A stretch of 64,000 nucleotides of DNA, from NCBI GenBank assembly GCA_030827005.1, contig JAVBJL010000004.1, forward strand, positions 7,559 to 71,558. Direction: 5' to 3'. The position numbers and the translations under genes were made by a program. The notes under the pieces are model-generated. The model saw only the letters and a list, made by a program, of their open reading frames with translations, did not search any database and was not told the DNA's origin. This document shows, piece by piece, positions 15,039-59,291 of this stretch; the first letter of the stretch is position 1; each line of letters begins with the position of its first letter. This stretch comes from Wigglesworthia glossinidia (GTDB lineage Bacteria; Pseudomonadota; Gammaproteobacteria; Enterobacterales; Enterobacteriaceae).

Positions 15039-16316
15039 TTAAGCATAAATATCTATTGTTTTTTGATACTTATTATCTAAAATATACTGTATTTCTTTTT
15101 TATATACATCGTATTTTGTTATTGAATTTAAATTTAAATATTCTTTTTTATTTCTTTTTTTTTCTTTCATAAAATTATTTTTTTTTTCATTTGAACTATT
15201 TTGTTTTTGATATTCTATATTATTGTAGATATTATCTGCTCTTTGATAAGATATATCTTTTGTTAGATTATTGCTAATAATTGCACTATCTAAAAAAATT
15301 CCATTTTCTAACAATGATTGACGTAATTCTTCTAAAGAAGATTTTAAAATATTTCTTATTTCTAGATTATCAGAAGATATATGTAATTTAATTTTGCTTT
15401 CGTAAGATTTTAATATTATATTAATAGGTCCAAGCTGCTTTGGACGTATTGCAAATTCTAAATGAAACACTCCATCTTGCTTAAAACAAATAATTTTTTC
15501 TTTTAATACAGTTGCCAATGATTTTGAGTCAGGAAAATTATTTGTGTTTGTTATTTCAATAAATTTTAAGTTTTCTTCGATCAAAGAAAATTTATTTTTA
15601 TAGATATTTTCTAAGTTAGATAAGTTATGAATATTTTGATCGATATTCTGATGTTTTTTTAAATCATTTTGATGAAAAATAAAATTTTCAAAATTAAATT
15701 TAGATTTAATTTGATTTTTTAGTATATTGCAAGATGTTTTTATACTTTCAATATTTGACGTATTTAATTCATAAGGATGTTCTTTAAAAGAATTTTTATT
15801 TAAAAAAAATATTTTATTTTGATTTTTTTGATCATTAAAATCTTGATCAATAAACAAATCAAAGTTTTCTTTTGATAATTTTTTTATATTTAAATTAAAA
15901 TTATCTAAATTTATATCTTGTATAAATATTAAGTAATTTTGATATACAATAAGTGTATTTGGAAATGAATTTTCTAATTTATTCTGATTTTTTATTTTAT
16001 TAAAATTTTTTATCAATTTATTATGAGTATCAAAATAAAATATATCGTTTATATTATTAAATAATGTATCAAAATTATTTATTATATTATTTTTTTTATA
16101 AATATTTATTTCATCAAATTTTGAATCTTCTAAAATATTTTTATCTATTTCAGAAGTTTTTTTATTAGTGATCAGATCAGTAGGTTGATCAGAATTATTT
16201 TGATTAAAAAAATTTTTCAAAATTTTTTTAAATTCTAATTCTGTTATCAAAGTTGGAATAGCATGAATAGTTTCTTGGGGAATATTATGCTGTTTATTTT
16301 CATGTAAATATATCAC
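15039..16316 (-). CDS. fliK: Hook-length control protein FliK (GTG start)
   Basis: Low-complexity N-terminus; C-terminal IRPKQLGPI, LEELRQSLLENGI.L and IDIYA; AGGAG upstream of the GTG. Confidence 0.88.
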   Translation of the reverse strand: MIYLHENKQHNIPQETIHAIPTLITELEFKKILKNFFNQNNSDQPTDLITNKKTSEIDKNILEDSKFDEINIYKKNNIINNFDTLFNNINDIFYFDTHNKLIKNFNKIKNQNKLENSFPNTLIVYQNYLIFIQDINLDNFNLNIKKLSKENFDLFIDQDFNDQKNQNKIFFLNKNSFKEHPYELNTSNIESIKTSCNILKNQIKSKFNFENFIFHQNDLKKHQNIDQNIHNLSNLENIYKNKFSLIEENLKFIEITNTNNFPDSKSLATVLKEKIICFKQDGVFHLEFAIRPKQLGPINIILKSYESKIKLHISSDNLEIRNILKSSLEELRQSLLENGIFLDSAIISNNLTKDISYQRADNIYNNIEYQKQNSSNEKKNNFMKEKKRNKKEYLNLNSITKYDVYKKEIQYILDNKYQKTIDIYA

Positions 16317-16322
16317 AAGATA

Positions 16323-16758
16323 CTATGCTCCTTTTATATACCTTCTTAAATATAATTCGTCTATTTGTTTTTGCAATGTTTTATCTTCAAAAGTTTTAAT
16401 TATCATATTACGACGTGTTTCTAGAATTTTAAATGCATTTAATTTGTCTTTTTTTTTTCCAATTATTTTTTGCTATATTAACTTTTAATTTATAACTATT
16501 AATCTGCTTATTATGTTCGGAAATTACATCGCATAAGCATATAAGAAACGTTTGATAGTTATTCCATATTTCTATATTTAAACCGTATTTTATCATACTT
16601 TCTTGTAAATTACGTCGGTACTCAGTTTCATAAAATATAAGAATATTTAATTTTTTTACTAATTTTATATATATATCATTAGTTTTTTTTAATTGTAAAC
16701 ATGCTTCTTGAAAATCAATTTTTGCATGTATTTTTAGTACTTTAAAAGTTAATTTCAT
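16323..16758 (-). pseudogene. fliJ: fliJ split by a one-base frameshift in an A10 tract; removing one A gives a 144-aa FliJ (possibly rescued by slippage)
   Basis: The 109-aa ORF ends WKKKRQIKCI*. The shifted frame continues KLNAFKILETRRNMIIKTFEDKTLQKQIDELYLRRYIKGA* to TAG at 16323, matching the FliJ C-terminus. Confidence 0.88.
16449..16458 (-). repeat. A10 homopolymer at the fliJ frameshift
   Basis: Plus strand T10 at 16449-16458. Confidence 0.95.
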
Positions 16759-16787: not shown

Positions 16788-18149
16788 TTAAGAAAATAAT
16801 TCCTTTAATTTTTGATAAGATTCTTCATACGAACATTTATTTTCTACATTTTGTTTTAAATATTTCATTAATTTTGGATAATTTATTATTGCTTGATCTA
16901 ATATGGGATCGTTTCCCGAAACATAAGCACCTACTGAAAGTAAATCTTTATTTTTTTGATAACTTGATATCCATTGTTTTATTTGTTGTATATGAGAAAA
17001 ATGTGATTTGTTTACTAAATTTGGCATAGTTCTGCTAATAGAAGTTTCAATTTCTATAGATGGATAGTGTCCTGATTCTGAAAGTTGTCTGGAAAGCACA
17101 ATATGACCATCTAAAATTGCTCTTGCAGCATCTGCAATAGGATCTTGTTGATCGTCTCCTTCTATTAAAACAGTATAAAAAGCTGTAATAGATCCATGAT
17201 TATGTGTTCCATTTCCAGTTTTTTCTACTAATTCGGATAATTTCGCAAAAACAGAGGGGGGATATCCTTTAGTTGTAGGAGGCTCTCCAATAGCTAATCC
17301 GATTTCGCGTTGTGCCATGGCATATCGTGTTAAGGAATCCATAATTAGTAAGACGTGTTTTCCTTGATTTCTAAAATCTTCTGCAATACGCGTCGCATAA
17401 ACTGCTCCTTGTATACGTAACATTGGTGAAATGTCGGCAGGAGCTGCAATTACTACAGATCTAGAAAGACCGTCTTTCTTTAAAATGTTATCAATAAAAT
17501 CTTTAACTTCGCGACCTCTTTCTCCAATTAATCCGACGACTATAATATCCGCTTGAGTATATCTTGCCATCATGCCAAGTAGCATACTTTTTCCAACACC
17601 AGATCCTGCAAATAACCCCATTCTTTGTCCTCTACCTACAGTAAGGAGTCCATTAATCGCTCTTACGCCAACATCTAAAATTTTTGTAATAGGATCACGT
17701 AGTAGGGGGTTAATAGGGTTAGTATATAAAGATTCTTTTCGCAATATTTTTGGTGGAGCTAATCCGTCTAAAAATTGACCGGAACTGTTCAAAACTCTTC
17801 CTAGTAATTCTTTTCCTAATGGAAGAAGTCGTGTAGAAATTTTTCCGTTGATCAATTCCGGCGAATATACTTTGGCTCCTGGAAATATTCCTTCTACATT
17901 TTCTAAAGGAATTAAAAATAAATTTTTTTCTTTAAAGCCTACTACTTCACATTCTATTTGAATAATAGATTTATCGGAATATTTTTCAATAATACATGTT
18001 GATCCAATAGGTAGTTGTAATCCAGTTACTTCCATAATTATACCGGTAGCACGAATTAATTTGCCGTATTGGTAGTAATCAGGAAGATTTGAAATTAAAT
18101 TTTCTTGATTATTGATTTTATCGATCCATCTTTTTAATTGTAATGTCAT
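16788..18149 (-). CDS. fliI: Flagellar export ATPase FliI
   Basis: Walker [10 protein letters not shown]; [10 protein letters not shown]; [13 protein letters not shown]. Confidence 0.99.
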
Positions 18150-19799: not shown

Positions 19800-21478
19800 G
19801 ATGTTTGTTTTTCTTTTTCAATCCATTGACTTAGAATTTTAGCTACTAATTTTGGTTGTTTAGTTGCAATTTCTTTTAGATCTTTAATTTTATTTTCTAT
19901 TAAAATATTATCATTTTCTATATTTTTTTGATTTTTTAATTGTGTATCTTGATCTTCTGAAATAAGATTATTATCTTTTTGAAGACTTGTTTGTTTTATT
20001 ATATCTTGTTGAGTTTTTTGTTGATTTTTCCATATTTTTATAAATTTATTCCAAATAAACCAGATTAAAATGAAAGATATTACGTATTTGATCATACTTA
20101 TAATTATATTTTGTATATGTATGTTTTCCCAAAAATAAATATGCGATACTTCTTCTTGATTATCAGCAAAATTTATATTTACGATATCTAACGTATCTCC
20201 TCTATTTTCTGAAAATCCCATAGTTTCTCGTACCAAAGAATTTATATCTCTCATTTCTTGATCATTTAGTTTTATTTGATTCCCGTCAATATTACGATTG
20301 TTTATAACTACAGCAACAGATAATTTTTTTAATATTCCAGGAGAAAATTGATTATGTGTAATTGTACGATCTATTTCGTAATTAATAATTTTTTCATTTT
20401 GTATATTGCTAGATTTTTCAGTGTTATTTGATATATTTTCTAAGTTTTCAGATGAAGATGGTTTAGATTGTATATTTTCATTTGTAGGCAAAATATCTGT
20501 AGAAGCTACTTGTGCTGGTTGGTTGCTTAAAGCACCTGGAACACCCTCCGGGATATTACCAAAATTTTTATTTTCTGTAATTTGTTGACTTCTAATTGTC
20601 ATTTCTTCGGGATTAGTATTTGGTTTATGTTGTTCTAAAGTTTGTTCTATTTTAGTAAAATCCATTTGTGCAGTCACTTCGGCACGAATATTGTTTATCC
20701 CTACTATTGGAATTAAAATGTCTTCAATTCTTCTACGATATTCTGATTCAATTTCACGAGTGTATTTCAATTGTGTGCTATTATTATTTTCTTTATTTTC
20801 TATTTGAGTAAGTAGTTTACCGTGATTATCGACTAAAACAATATTGCTCGCTGGTAAATTAGGAGTAGTTCCTGATACCAACCAGGTGATTGCTTGAATT
20901 TGACTATTATCAAGTATTCTTCCTGGATGTAATGTAAGAGTAATGGATGCTCTTGCTGGTTGCTTGTCTTTTATAAAAACAGAATTTTTTGGAATAGCAA
21001 TATGTACGCGTGCAGATTTTATAGGATTTAATATCTCTATTGTGCGTGCAATTTCTCCTTCTAGTGCACGTTGGTAGTTAATTTGTTCATTAAATTGACT
21101 TATTCCAAAACTAGAAGAATCTAGGATCTCAAATCCTACTGAACCTCCTTTTGGTAAATTTTTTTGTGCAAGTAGCAATCTTGTTTTATATATTTGATCA
21201 GCTGGAATCATAATAGATCCATTTGTATTTGAAAACTTATATGGAATATTTGCGGAAGATAGTTCGGATATAATTGCTCCTCCATCTTGATCACTAACGT
21301 TGCTATATAATATTTGATATTCTGGGGTTTTCATCCACATAATTAATACTGCTATTAATGTAGCTCCAAAAATTCCAGATATTAGAAAAAGATATTTTGG
21401 ATTGCTAAAAATTTTTTTAAAAAAATCAGATAAATACTCATTTGATCTGCTTTTCATGCTTTCAGAAAAAACATCCAT
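19796..21478 (-). CDS. fliF: MS-ring protein FliF
   Basis: GFEILDSSSFGISQFNEQINYQRALEGEIARTI; ARVHIAIPK; two transmembrane helices. Confidence 0.98.
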   Translation of the reverse strand: MDVFSESMKSRSNEYLSDFFKKIFSNPKYLFLISGIFGATLIAVLIMWMKTPEYQILYSNVSDQDGGAIISELSSANIPYKFSNTNGSIMIPADQIYKTRLLLAQKNLPKGGSVGFEILDSSSFGISQFNEQINYQRALEGEIARTIEILNPIKSARVHIAIPKNSVFIKDKQPARASITLTLHPGRILDNSQIQAITWLVSGTTPNLPASNIVLVDNHGKLLTQIENKENNNSTQLKYTREIESEYRRRIEDILIPIVGINNIRAEVTAQMDFTKIEQTLEQHKPNTNPEEMTIRSQQITENKNFGNIPEGVPGALSNQPAQVASTDILPTNENIQSKPSSSENLENISNNTEKSSNIQNEKIINYEIDRTITHNQFSPGILKKLSVAVVINNRNIDGNQIKLNDQEMRDINSLVRETMGFSENRGDTLDIVNINFADNQEEVSHIYFWENIHIQNIIISMIKYVISFILIWFIWNKFIKIWKNQQKTQQDIIKQTSLQKDNNLISEDQDTQLKNQKNIENDNILIENKIKDLKEIATKQPKLVAKILSQWIEKEKQTS

Positions 21479-58249: not shown

Positions 58250-59291
58250 TGCGATATTTATTTATGACAATTTTATATAAAACAAAAAAACAAAAAATAT
58301 CTTTCATATATGCATGGATATTAACATTAATTTTTTTTTTAAAATACATGTTTTTTCTATAGAACCTTTAAATATTACAAATGAAACATTAATTACTATA
58401 CCTAAAGGTAGTACAATGCTTTATTTACAAAGACTTATGGAAAAAAAAAATATTATTAGAAGCAACTCACATCTTTTATCTATTTTAGTTAAAATCAATC
58501 CGAATTTAAAAAATATTAAAGCTGGAACATATGCTTTACATCCAGGGATGAATATTAAAGATGCACTGAATATATTCGTAATAGGTAAAGAAAAACAATT
58601 TTCCATCCAATTTATTGAAGGATCAACCCTAAAAGACTGTTTAAATATTTTAAAAAATTCTCCAGAATTACAACAAGATATAGATATGAATAACTTAAAT
58701 AATTTATCAAAACAATTAGGAGATAAATCAGAAATATTATTAGAAGGAAGTTTATATCCAGATAAATACCTCCATACTAAAAATACAAAAGTCAGCGAAA
58801 TATTAAAACGTGCAAAACAGAACATGACAAATATTTTAAAAGAAATATGGGAAACTAGAGATAAAAATTTACCATACGAATCCCCTCAATCATTATTAGT
58901 TATGGCATCTATTATTGAAAAAGAATCAGCATTAAAATATGAACGATTTAGAATATCTTCTGTATTTGTTAATCGATTAAAAAATAAAATGAAATTACAA
59001 TCAGATCCTACTGTAGAATACGGCGTTAAACTTTTACAACCTAATAAAAAAATAACTTATAAAGATTTTAAAATATCAACTCCTTATAATACTTATATTA
59101 TTTACGGACTGCCAAAAACAGCAATATCCATGCCAAGCTTGGAATCAATTCAAGCTGCTGCACATCCAGAGAAAAGTGATTATTTTTACTTTGTTTCTAC
59201 TGGAAATGGCGATCATATTTTTAGTCAAGATTTCGATAGTCATAAACAAGCAGTTAAAAATTATCGAAGATGGAAAAAAGGAAATAAATAG
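58249..59291 (+). CDS. mltG: Endolytic transglycosylase MltG, frameshifted at a T10 tract between its membrane anchor and the catalytic ORF (58314-59291)
   Basis: ATG overlaps the pabC stop (TAATG) and encodes basic residues plus a transmembrane helix; adding one T joins it to KIHVF...; [27 protein letters not shown] present. Confidence 0.9.
58331..58340 (+). repeat. T10 homopolymer at the mltG frameshift
   Basis: Ten consecutive T at 58331-58340. Confidence 0.95.

What the first reader, a model, noticed from the sequence alone, without database searches (positions are those of the whole stretch)
16323..16758. fliJ is interrupted by a one-base frameshift in an A10 run with both halves intact
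Seen: TGG-A10-GACAAA stops at 109 aa, whereas A9 gives 144 aa with a typical FliJ tail whose last codons supply the SD of fliK. The out-of-frame part has no stops or decay. Known: RNA polymerase slips on A/T runs of about 9 or more, and this rescues frameshifted genes in Buchnera and Blochmannia; FliJ is the central stalk of the FliH/I ATPase and is needed for efficient export. Inference: a dose limiter or ON/OFF switch for flagellar assembly between bacteriome and extracellular phases. A homopolymer sequencing error is the main alternative.
Basis: partly seen in the sequence, partly recalled or inferred. Interest (0 to 1): 0.8.

Follow-up and report, generated by a model that had tools for sequence, protein, structure and literature searches.

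The report
Poly(A)-frameshifted fliJ kept in tsetse symbiont
The flagellar export gene fliJ of this tsetse-fly symbiont (Wigglesworthia) really is knocked out of frame by one extra A in a run of ten. The same run is out of frame in two other Wigglesworthia lineages while the downstream piece still evolves like a working protein, so full-length FliJ is most likely made by RNA polymerase slipping on the A-run, a rescue already known from other insect symbionts.

Summary
fliJ lies on the minus strand and reads TGG-A10-GAC (run at 16449-16458). The genomic frame stops after 109 aa. A9 or A12 gives a 144-aa protein that covers the whole Pfam FliJ model and aligns with Salmonella FliJ (PDB 3AJW) to residue 143.

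It is very unlikely to be an assembly error:
- An independent Logan assembly is identical over 3.3 kb, including the A10.
- The finished 719,535-bp sister genome (G002) has A13 at the same site, and a fourth lineage (L010) has A12. Both are out of frame.
- The 697,724-bp genome named W. glossinidia of G. brevipalpis (G001) is in frame, with the run broken by GAG.

In the three broken lineages the 41-codon tail has no stop and no indel. Its dN/dS is 0.08-0.31, lower than the head (0.36-0.45), and this signal appears only in the FliJ frame.

Six of seven other poly(A)-broken genes in this genome are broken at the same site in G002: lpxK, ung, nusB, recJ, zapE and fliJ itself. ung carries A10 in all three species.

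The best reading is a long-retained frameshift rescued by transcriptional slippage, as in Buchnera and Blochmannia, with Shigella spa13 as a close parallel. The proposed ON/OFF switch has no support. This is a new member of a known kind.

The parts
16429..16758 (-). fliJ genomic reading frame (head): 109 aa, ATG at 16758, premature TAA at 16431-16429. It holds the residues equivalent to the FlhA-linker contact set of Salmonella FliJ (L42, Y45, Y49, F72, L76, H83).
   Evidence: PF02050 positions 3-87 of 123. One search gives the alignment to 3AJW. The residue list comes from PMC9114704.
16449..16458 (-). A10 homopolymer (T10 on the + strand), the frameshift site. A9 or A12 restores the frame.
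   Evidence: The same run is identical in the independent Logan contig L009.
16323..16448 (-). fliJ tail in the +1 frame: 41 codons, DKLNAF...YIKGA, plus TAG at 16325-16323. It is homologous to residues ~106-143 of Salmonella FliJ, the C-terminal part of helix alpha2.
   Evidence: dN/dS is 0.08-0.31 with no stop and no indel in three out-of-frame lineages.
16328..16333 (-). AAGGAG Shine-Dalgarno of fliK, formed by the last sense codons of the fliJ tail.
   Evidence: Read directly from the sequence. The fliK GTG lies 11 nt downstream.
15039..16316 (-). fliK (hook-length control protein, 425 aa). Its GTG start is 6 nt after the stop of the restored fliJ frame and 112 nt after the premature stop.
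   Evidence: One search gives the gene call with PF02120 Flg_hook.
16788..18149 (-). fliI (export ATPase, 453 aa), directly upstream in the same operon. It is the partner whose hexamer ring FliJ inserts into.
   Evidence: PF00006, PF18269. Searches show 92% identity to W. glossinidia (G. morsitans) FliI within the same 90% cluster.

Best explanation
fliJ of this Wigglesworthia carries a genuine, evolutionarily retained +1 frameshift inside a lysine-coding A10 run. Most transcripts would give a 109-aa C-terminally truncated FliJ. A minority of mRNAs, made when RNA polymerase slips on the run (A10 to A9, or to A12), restore the frame. They give the 144-aa coiled-coil stalk protein that plugs into the FliI6 ATPase ring. 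Ribosomes reading these corrected mRNAs terminate 6 nt before the fliK start, so slippage may also feed translational coupling into fliK. Shown: the lesion, its presence in independent assemblies and sister lineages, and purifying selection on the tail in the FliJ frame. Inferred: that the rescue happens at the transcription step, its yield, and any effect on fliK.
For: (1) The lesion is real. The Logan assembly of SRR21669497 is 100% identical over 3,330 bp, including the A10.
(2) The same site is out of frame in other lineages. G002 (719,535 bp) has TGG-A13-T, which needs A11 or A14. L010 (Logan SRR14633898) has TGG-A12-T, which needs A11. In homologous register, G000 and L010 both have A10 before the D/N codon (+1 state) and G002 has A11 (+2 state). 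G001 is in frame with A6-GAG-A9.
(3) The tail shows 0 stops and 0 indels over 41 codons in all three broken lineages. Tail dN/dS is 0.08, 0.31 and 0.22, against 0.36, 0.45 and 0.40 for the head. In random-substitution simulations, the probability of so few amino-acid changes and no stop is 0.001-0.014. The low pN/pS appears only in the FliJ frame (0.09-0.41). The other two frames give 0.6-1.45 and carry 3-7 stops.
(4) The tail is bona fide FliJ: the Pfam model is covered to its end and the alignment to 3AJW runs to residue 143.
(5) The genome-wide habit is conserved. Joined products of recJ, nusB, ung, lpxK, zapE, an AMIN-amidase, dapF and an M23 peptidase have Pfam domains that span an A9-A11 junction. 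lpxK, recJ and zapE are split at the same place in G002. nusB and ung are split in both G001 and G002. ung has GC(A/T)-A10-GT in all three species. By established knowledge lpxK is essential in E. coli, so some read-through mechanism must operate.
(6) Lineages sit in different offset states (+1 and +2). This fits a mechanism that yields both shorter and longer products, as RNAP slippage does, better than a directional ribosomal shift.
(7) Literature: 12-50% of transcripts are corrected at poly(A) frameshifts in Buchnera and Blochmannia, and 25-30% of product is full-length for Shigella spa13 (PMC5009743). The G. morsitans symbiont fliJ homologue is transcribed and is up-regulated in female bacteriomes (PMC8166097).
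Against: A search of 5.8 billion predicted proteins with the restored 144-aa sequence found only the truncated forms, so no assembled contig (DNA or RNA) carries an in-frame version. Baranov et al. 2005 inferred from run statistics that slippage 'is not possible' in W. glossinidia (PMC1088944). The tail is short (41 codons), so the selection tests are significant but not overwhelming. Part of the signal could date from before independent, recent frameshifts at a hypermutable site. No stimulatory RNA structure was found (z = 0.43). By established knowledge FliJ is not strictly essential for flagellar export in Salmonella, so loss could be tolerated.
Confidence: 0.6

Rival explanations
1. Ribosomal rescue. 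The mRNA is a faithful A10 copy, and ribosomes slide or shift +1 on the poly(A)/Lys-codon run to reach the tail frame. This could act alone or together with RNAP slippage.
For: The same comparative evidence fits any recoding mechanism. By established knowledge, ribosome sliding on lysine-coding A-runs is documented in E. coli. The review PMC5009743 notes that endosymbionts may retain indels compensated by translational frameshifting.
Against: G000 and L010 need a +1 (or -2) shift, whereas G002 needs -1 (or +2), so one directional shift cannot serve all lineages. There is no downstream structure, no obvious slow A-site codon, and no stimulatory element. In the tested endosymbiont cases the heterogeneity was at the transcript level.
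Confidence: 0.12
2. Decaying or truncated gene. The frameshift is a tolerated loss-of-function (or partial-function) lesion. Only the 109-aa product is made, and the tail looks intact because the breaks are recent and independent at a hypermutable run.
For: Rio et al. 2012 annotated the G. morsitans symbiont fliJ as a pseudogene, as reported in PMC8166097. Mismatch repair is absent (no MutS or MutL), so A-runs should mutate fast and independent hits are plausible. The three lineages do have different run lengths. The head retains all residues equivalent to the FlhA-linker contacts, so a truncated form might keep some activity.
Against: The tail dN/dS is lower than the head, it is frame-specific, and there are no stops or indels in three lineages. 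This holds even for the close pair L010-G002, which are both broken (2 non-synonymous against 5 synonymous changes). G000 and L010, only about 58-63% identical in FliJ, share the same +1 state. Six of seven poly(A) breaks tested are shared with G002 and two with G001, including lpxK, which is hard to explain as coincidental recent decay.
Confidence: 0.15
3. DNA-level heterogeneity or phase variation. Without mismatch repair, the polyploid symbiont population holds a mix of A9, A10 and A11 genome copies. In-frame copies supply FliJ, possibly enriched in the milk-gland (transmitted, flagellated) population.
For: No MutS or MutL in any of the three genomes. The run length differs between lineages. 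Flagellar expression differs between bacteriome and milk-gland populations (Rio 2012, as cited in PMC8166097).
Against: Both assemblies of this lineage, and those of two others, give an out-of-frame consensus. The ung run is A10 in all three species, so these runs are stable over long times rather than flickering. The bacteriome population is re-seeded each generation from the milk-gland population, so an ON-enriched inoculum would have to switch back en masse.
Confidence: 0.07
4. Homopolymer sequencing or assembly error: the true genome has A9.
For: The assembly is a 10-contig draft. A10 runs are error-prone on some platforms. One of the poly(A) breaks (dapF, A9) is private to this genome.
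Against: An independent assembler produced an identical sequence from a public run. The orthologous site is also out of frame in a finished genome and in another Logan assembly. Six of seven poly(A) breaks in this draft recur at the same sites in the finished sister genome. Of the sense-strand A10 runs that lie in long open frames, 74 are in frame and only 7 are shift candidates, so there is no general run-length miscalling.
Confidence: 0.05

Closest known systems
Poly(A)-tract frameshifted genes of Buchnera aphidicola and Blochmannia, rescued by transcriptional slippage (Tamas et al. 2008; Wernegreen et al. [quoted passage not shown]
   Same: An AT-rich, reduced insect endosymbiont. A 1-2 base indel inside an A-run of 9 or more. 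Both halves intact. The break is retained across host-lineage divergence with purifying selection downstream. Several genes per genome are affected, including envelope genes.
   Different: A different symbiont genus and a different gene: a flagellar export component, which Buchnera and Blochmannia cases did not involve. Transcript heterogeneity was shown experimentally there (12-50% corrected) but is only inferred here. Rio et al. 2012 raised the idea for Wigglesworthia pseudogenes in general terms only.
Shigella flexneri spa13 (SctO, the injectisome homologue of FliJ), followed by spa32 (SctP, the needle-length ruler) (Penno et al. 2006, as summarised in PMC5009743)
   Same: The same component of a type III export machine, the coiled-coil stalk of the ATPase. 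The gene is split into two frames at a slippery run. The full-length product needs slippage. The end of the extended frame abuts the start of the downstream length-control gene (spa32 there, fliK here; a 6-nt gap here). In Shigella this makes slippage control expression of that gene.
   Different: In Shigella the shift occurs after codon 58 and adds 112 aa. Here it occurs after codon ~103 and adds 41 aa. Shigella slippage is demonstrated at 25-30% yield and is treated as programmed. Here neither the yield nor the effect on fliK has been measured, and the lesion sits among about 8 similar lesions that look like tolerated damage.
fliJ 'pseudogene' of Wigglesworthia glossinidia from Glossina morsitans (Rio et al. 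2012; WIGMOR_RS00305 in Medina Munoz et al. 2021)
   Same: The orthologous gene, broken at the orthologous run, with an intact tail 61% identical to this one. It is reported as transcribed and female-biased, with 'some preservation of function' suggested.
   Different: The run there is A13 (+2 state) against A10 (+1 state) here. The papers describe it as truncated. In the text I could read, they do not link it to the A-run, the conserved tail or slippage.
Slipped-strand phase-variable contingency genes (homopolymer ON/OFF switches in Haemophilus, Neisseria, Campylobacter flagellar genes)
   Same: A homopolymer inside an ORF that sets the reading frame, in a surface or motility apparatus gene, in a genome without mismatch repair.
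   Different: No ON allele was seen in any assembly of the lineages with the long run. The run states are stable over long divergence (ung A10 in three species). A vertically transmitted clonal symbiont has no obvious need for bet-hedging.

Membership tests
FliJ (PF02050), flagellar type III export stalk protein | Sequence match to the family model over its full length | tested here: met
   The restored 144-aa product gives 48.8 bits (cut-off 28.4) over profile positions 3-123 of 123. The genomic 109-aa product gives 38.8 bits over positions 3-87 only.
FliJ (PF02050), flagellar type III export stalk protein | Homology to a solved FliJ, including the C-terminal helix | tested here: met
   phmmer against the PDB: 3AJW (Salmonella FliJ), E = 1e-12, query 34-138 aligned to chain 39-143. 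The tail aligns to ...KKQRLQAWQTLQDRQ...MDEFAQR.
FliJ (PF02050), flagellar type III export stalk protein | Position between fliI and fliK in the fliF-K operon | tested here: met
   The order fliF-G-H-I-J-K-L-M-N on the minus strand. Gene calls with FliH, ATP-synt_ab, FliJ, Flg_hook and FliL.
Endosymbiont poly(A) frameshift rescued by transcriptional slippage (Tamas 2008 / Wernegreen 2010 class) | Indel of 1-2 bases located inside an A/T homopolymer of about 9 or more | tested here: met
   A10 at 16449-16458; A9 or A12 restores the frame.
Endosymbiont poly(A) frameshift rescued by transcriptional slippage (Tamas 2008 / Wernegreen 2010 class) | Frameshift retained across lineages, with the downstream frame under purifying selection | tested here: met
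   Out of frame in G000, G002 and L010. Tail dN/dS 0.08-0.31, frame-specific, with no stops or indels.
Endosymbiont poly(A) frameshift rescued by transcriptional slippage (Tamas 2008 / Wernegreen 2010 class) | mRNA population with heterogeneous run length, including frame-restoring lengths | not testable with these tools
No in-frame product appears among the assembled contigs of the protein collection.
Endosymbiont poly(A) frameshift rescued by transcriptional slippage (Tamas 2008 / Wernegreen 2010 class) | Full-length protein detectable | not testable with these tools
   No proteomic data were reachable.
Programmed slippage in a T3SS stalk gene (Shigella spa13 type) | The gene encodes the SctO/FliJ stalk and is split at a slippery run, with the C-terminal part required for function | tested here: inconclusive
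   The split at the A-run and the FliJ identity are shown. The requirement for the tail is inferred only from its conservation and from its role in the antiparallel coiled coil that enters the FliI6 ring (PMC9114704).
Programmed slippage in a T3SS stalk gene (Shigella spa13 type) | The end of the extended frame overlaps or abuts the start of the length-control gene and modulates its expression | tested here: inconclusive
   The geometry is met: the restored stop at 16325-16323 lies 6 nt before the fliK GTG at 16316, and the SD lies inside the tail. The effect on fliK expression was not testable.
Phase-variable contingency locus (DNA slipped-strand mispairing) | ON and OFF run lengths coexisting in the population | tested here: inconclusive
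   Two assemblies of this lineage both show A10. The read-level test was impossible. The absence of mismatch repair makes heterogeneity plausible.

The most novel reading that the evidence does not exclude
The out-of-frame A-run may not be mere tolerated damage. It may be a maintained expression device, convergent with Shigella spa13-spa32. By letting only a fixed minority of transcripts encode full-length FliJ, it would set the low FliJ share of the FliH12:FliI6:FliJ1 complex from a tightly packed operon. It would also meter ribosome delivery to the fliK start 6 nt beyond the restored stop. The abundant 109-aa form, which keeps the FlhA-linker contact residues but lacks the part that enters the FliI ring, might itself damp export-gate activation in the non-flagellated bacteriome population.
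Probability: 0.15. Interest if true: 0.7.

Novelty: new member of a known kind. Interest (0 to 1): 0.45.

Why it matters
Wigglesworthia is unusual among ancient insect mutualists in keeping a complete flagellar system, which is thought to serve its mother-to-larva transmission through the milk gland. If fliJ were a dead gene in the G. morsitans-type lineages, that would bear on how the export apparatus works there. The evidence here says it is still a selected, full-length coding gene that is read through a frameshift, so it should not be annotated as a pseudogene.

More broadly, at least six poly(A) breaks are shared between Wigglesworthia species, and ung and nusB are shared by all three. 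This extends the 'ancient frameshifts maintained in homopolymers' phenomenon to a third endosymbiont genus. It also contradicts an early statistical inference that slippage does not occur in this organism. The parallel with Shigella spa13/spa32 suggests that the stalk-gene/ruler-gene junction of type III systems may be a recurrent place for slippage-based dosing. The rescue itself is a known mechanism, and the sister-species lesion is already in the literature, so the surprise to a specialist is moderate.

Tried and rejected
- Read-level test of run length in DNA and RNA: the look-up of sequencing runs and read laying were both closed, so no counts of A9, A10 and A11 were possible.
- Search for an in-frame or slipped product among 5.8 billion predicted proteins with the restored 144-aa sequence: only the two truncated forms were found. 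This is weak negative evidence, because assemblers collapse minority variants.
- Frameshift-stimulating RNA structure, or a terminator, between the premature stop and fliK: none. MFE -13.2 kcal/mol, z = 0.43, 0 terminators, and promoter-like hits no more frequent than in shuffles.
- Independent translation of the tail: rejected. The tail frame has no ATG, GTG or TTG between its upstream stop and the run.
- Supplementary pseudogene table of Rio 2012: not held.
- Sense-strand T-run scan: most 'candidates' were antisense or boundary artefacts. Only the T10 at window 58331-58340 looked like a real gene break.
- Several A-run 'shift candidates' were rejected as plain gene boundaries: talB/tktA, dfp/dut, holA/nadD and the hisS start.
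- Identifying the host species of this genome: FliI comparisons show only that it is neither the G. brevipalpis, G. morsitans nor G. pallidipes symbiont sequence on record.

Full report
**What is there.** The finding lies in the minus-strand flagellar operon fliF-G-H-I-J-K-L-M-N. The minus strand reads ...AAT AAT TGG AAAAAAAAAA GAC AAA TTA AAT GCA TTT.... The run is exactly ten A's (T10 on the + strand, 16449-16458).
- In the genomic frame the ORF from ATG 16758 stops at TAA 16431-16429 after 109 aa (...NNWKKKRQIKCI*).
- Removing one A or adding two gives a 144-aa product...NNWKKK(K)DKLNAFKILETRRNMIIKTFEDKTLQKQIDELYLRRYIKGA*, which stops at TAG 16325-16323.
- The last sense codons, AAA GGA GCA, form the AAGGAG Shine-Dalgarno of fliK. 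Its GTG (16316) lies 6 nt after that stop.

**It is FliJ, and the tail belongs to it.** The 144-aa form covers the Pfam FliJ model end to end (positions 3-123 of 123; 48.8 bits). The 109-aa form covers only positions 3-87. Against the PDB, the restored protein aligns with Salmonella FliJ (3AJW) from residue 34 to 138 (E = 1e-12). W100 aligns with the Salmonella tryptophan just before its own KK motif, and the tail aligns with the last ~38 residues of helix alpha2.

According to PMC9114704, FliJ is a two-stranded antiparallel coiled coil. It sits in the centre of the FliI6 ring (stoichiometry FliH12:FliI6:FliJ1) and contacts the FlhA linker through Q38, L42, Y45, Y49, F72, L76, A79 and H83. In the alignment, L42, Y45, Y49, F72, L76 and H83 are conserved here, and all lie in the head. 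My inference is that the 109-aa product would keep the gate-contact tip but lose the part of alpha2 that pairs with the N-terminal helix and enters the ATPase ring.

**Which organism.** The window is part of a 719,035-bp, 10-contig, 25% G+C genome. Its genus mates are a 697,724-bp genome (G001) and a 719,535-bp genome (G002).
- The FliI on G001 is named W. glossinidia endosymbiont of Glossina brevipalpis.
- The FliI on G002 is named W. glossinidia (accession AFA40921.1).
- The sizes match Table 1 of Rio et al. 2012 for the G. morsitans and G. brevipalpis symbionts.

This genome is a third species. Its FliI is 92% identical to a G. pallidipes-derived fragment, so it is not that lineage either.

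**Is it a sequencing error?** This is very unlikely, for four reasons.
1. Logan's independent assembly of public run SRR21669497 carries an 85,953-bp contig that is identical to the window over 3,330 bp, including the A10.
2. The orthologous site is out of frame elsewhere.
   - G002 has TGG-A13-TAAACTAAACGCG, which needs A11 or A14.
   - A fourth lineage, on a 155,548-bp Logan contig of SRR14633898 (L010), has TGG-A12-TAAATTAAATGCA, which needs A11 or A14.
   - G001 is in frame, with the run interrupted: TGG AAAAAA GAG AAAAAAAAA TTA AAT GCA.
   - In homologous register (W, K-run, D/N, K-L-N-A-F), G000 and L010 both have ten A's before the D/N codon (+1 state) and G002 has eleven (+2 state).
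3. Among sense-strand A10 runs lying in long open frames, 74 are in frame and 7 are shift candidates, so the assembly does not miscall runs wholesale.
4. Most of those breaks recur in the finished sister genome (see 'A genome-wide, conserved habit' below).

**Is the tail still under selection?** Yes, as far as 41 codons can show.
- Across the three out-of-frame lineages the tail has no stop and no indel.
- Nei-Gojobori dN/dS for the tail is 0.08 (L010-G002), 0.31 (G000-L010) and 0.22 (G000-G002). The head gives 0.36, 0.45 and 0.40 for the same pairs.
- The close pair L010-G002, both broken, differ in the tail by 5 synonymous and 2 non-synonymous changes.
- When the observed number of substitutions is placed at random, the probability of as few amino-acid changes and no stop is 0.003-0.004, 0.004-0.014 and 0.001-0.004 for the three pairs, under equal and AT-biased models.
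- As a control, pN/pS is low only in the FliJ frame (0.09, 0.41, 0.35). The other two frames give 0.6-1.45 and carry 3-7 stop columns.

So the constraint is on the encoded peptide, not on the fliK ribosome-binding site or some other DNA or RNA signal.

**A genome-wide, conserved habit.** A scan of the whole genome for sense-strand A runs of 9 or more that separate two long open frames gave 14 candidates. Four are ordinary gene boundaries. The rest are fliJ and breaks inside recJ (A11), nusB (A10), ung (A10), lpxK (A10), zapE/AFG1 (A10), an AMIN-amidase (A9), dapF (A9) and an M23 peptidase (two sites). For all of these, a single Pfam domain or the expected domain set spans the junction once the frame is restored.

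| Gene | State in G002 | State in G001 |
|---|---|---|
| lpxK | split at the same site (AAT-A11-TTATCA; needs A9 or A12), plus a second A11 break | intact |
| recJ | split at the same place | intact |
| zapE | split at the same place | intact |
| nusB | split | split |
| ung | split | split |
| dapF | intact | intact |

The ung run is GC(A/T)-A10-GT in all three species, each needing A11 or A8. Only dapF is private to this genome. By established knowledge lpxK is essential in E. coli. Its persistence out of frame in two divergent species implies that Wigglesworthia does read through such runs. None of the three genomes has MutS or MutL, while the control genomes do.

**Mechanism.** The best-supported reading is the known endosymbiont rescue. 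RNA polymerase slips on the long A-run and produces a length distribution that includes frame-restoring A9 or A12 transcripts.
- The review PMC5009743 reports 12-50% corrected transcripts for poly(A)-broken genes of Buchnera and Blochmannia.
- Sister lineages sit in different offset states (+1 and +2). This fits a process that both deletes and inserts better than a directional ribosomal shift.
- No stimulatory RNA structure follows the run.
- Ribosomal sliding on the Lys-codon run, and DNA-level run-length heterogeneity in a repair-deficient polyploid symbiont, remain possible contributors.

The steps from 'tail is selected' to 'RNAP slippage at x%' are inference, not observation.

**What is already known.**
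- Medina Munoz et al. [quoted passage not shown] They found its homologue (WIGMOR_RS00305) up-regulated in female bacteriomes and suggested 'some preservation of function'.
- Rio et al. 2012 noted that 6 of 11 pseudogenes in that genome have 1-2 base frameshifts. Citing Wernegreen 2010, they suggested that such lesions 'particularly within homopolymeric tracts' may be bypassed.
- Baranov et al. 2005 had inferred the opposite from run statistics, that slippage 'is not possible' in W. glossinidia. The conserved out-of-frame runs found here argue against that inference.

The closest mechanistic parallel is Shigella spa13. It is the injectisome homologue of FliJ (SctO), and its full-length product needs transcriptional slippage (25-30% yield). 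Its extended frame overlaps the start of spa32, the needle-length ruler, so slippage strongly affects spa32 expression. Here the restored fliJ frame ends 6 nt before fliK, the hook-length ruler. The geometry is the same but the effect is untested.

Nothing supports an ON/OFF switch between bacteriome and extracellular phases. Every lineage with the long run has an out-of-frame consensus, and comparable runs (ung) have kept the same length across the genus. A constant dosing role is conceivable, since one FliJ is needed per six FliI. But fliJ is one of about eight similar lesions, so tolerated damage with rescue is the simpler reading.

**Earlier notes of this scan.** These were treated as leads only. 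Notes on the sister genome reached the same reading for its A13 fliJ (e1-2523477), and I re-derived that here from the sequences. Other notes reported similar conserved breaks in der, mrdA and tamB (e1-2523520, e1-2652849, e1-2652863), which I did not test. The mltG T10 break in this window (e1-5232529) reappeared in my T-run scan at 58331-58340.

**Limits.**
- The tail is short.
- The Logan assembly may derive from the same reads as the deposited genome.
- The host species of this genome and of L010 are unknown.

**Verdict.** The lesion is real and long-retained. Rescue by slippage is probable (about 0.6 for the transcriptional route and about 0.75 for any recoding). A regulatory switch is unsupported. 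This is a new member of a known kind and is of moderate interest.

Noticed in passing
G000 contigs outside the window: C8:32517-32527 (recJ, A11), C8:2219-2228 (nusB, A10), C10:51542-51551 (ung, A10), C10:88536-88545 (lpxK, A10), C10:218375-218384 (zapE/AFG1, A10), C10:66939-66947 (AMIN-amidase, A9), C10:64069-64077 (dapF, A9), C10:20315-20324 and 20499-20507 (M23 peptidase/nlpD-like): At least eight further genes of this genome are broken only at sense-strand A9-A11 runs, with both halves intact. Pfam domains span each restored junction.
   Followed up: partly
G000 C10:51542-51551; G002 C1 ~508,545; G001 C1 ~333,720: ung carries the same out-of-frame GC(A/T)-A10-GT run in all three Wigglesworthia species, each needing A11 or A8. 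The frameshift therefore appears older than the genus radiation and has an unchanged run length despite the absence of mismatch repair.
   Followed up: partly
G002 C1:545150-546400 (L015): lpxK of the finished sister genome has two poly(A) breaks: an A11 at about codon 110 and an A11 at about codon 253. The second is at the same site as this genome's A10 break. G001 lpxK is intact.
   Followed up: yes
window 58331-58340 (+ strand): A T10 run separates a 34-codon upstream frame from a 320-codon downstream frame. This is the mltG break described in another first-stage note. It was the only convincing sense-strand T-run break in my genome scan.
   Followed up: no
whole genomes G000, G001, G002: No MutS (PF00488) or MutL (PF08676) domain was detectable in any of the three Wigglesworthia genomes, although the control genomes ring. 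Homopolymer lengths should therefore be mutationally unstable, which makes the conserved run lengths notable.
   Followed up: partly
G000 C10:64069-64077: The dapF A9 break is private to this genome; dapF is intact in G001 and G002. It is the best candidate among the breaks for either a recent lesion or an assembly error.
   Followed up: no
whole genome G000: A/T runs of 6-10 are 2-4.5 times more frequent than expected from base composition (for example 114 runs of 10 against 30 expected). Runs of 12 or more are not enriched.
   Followed up: no
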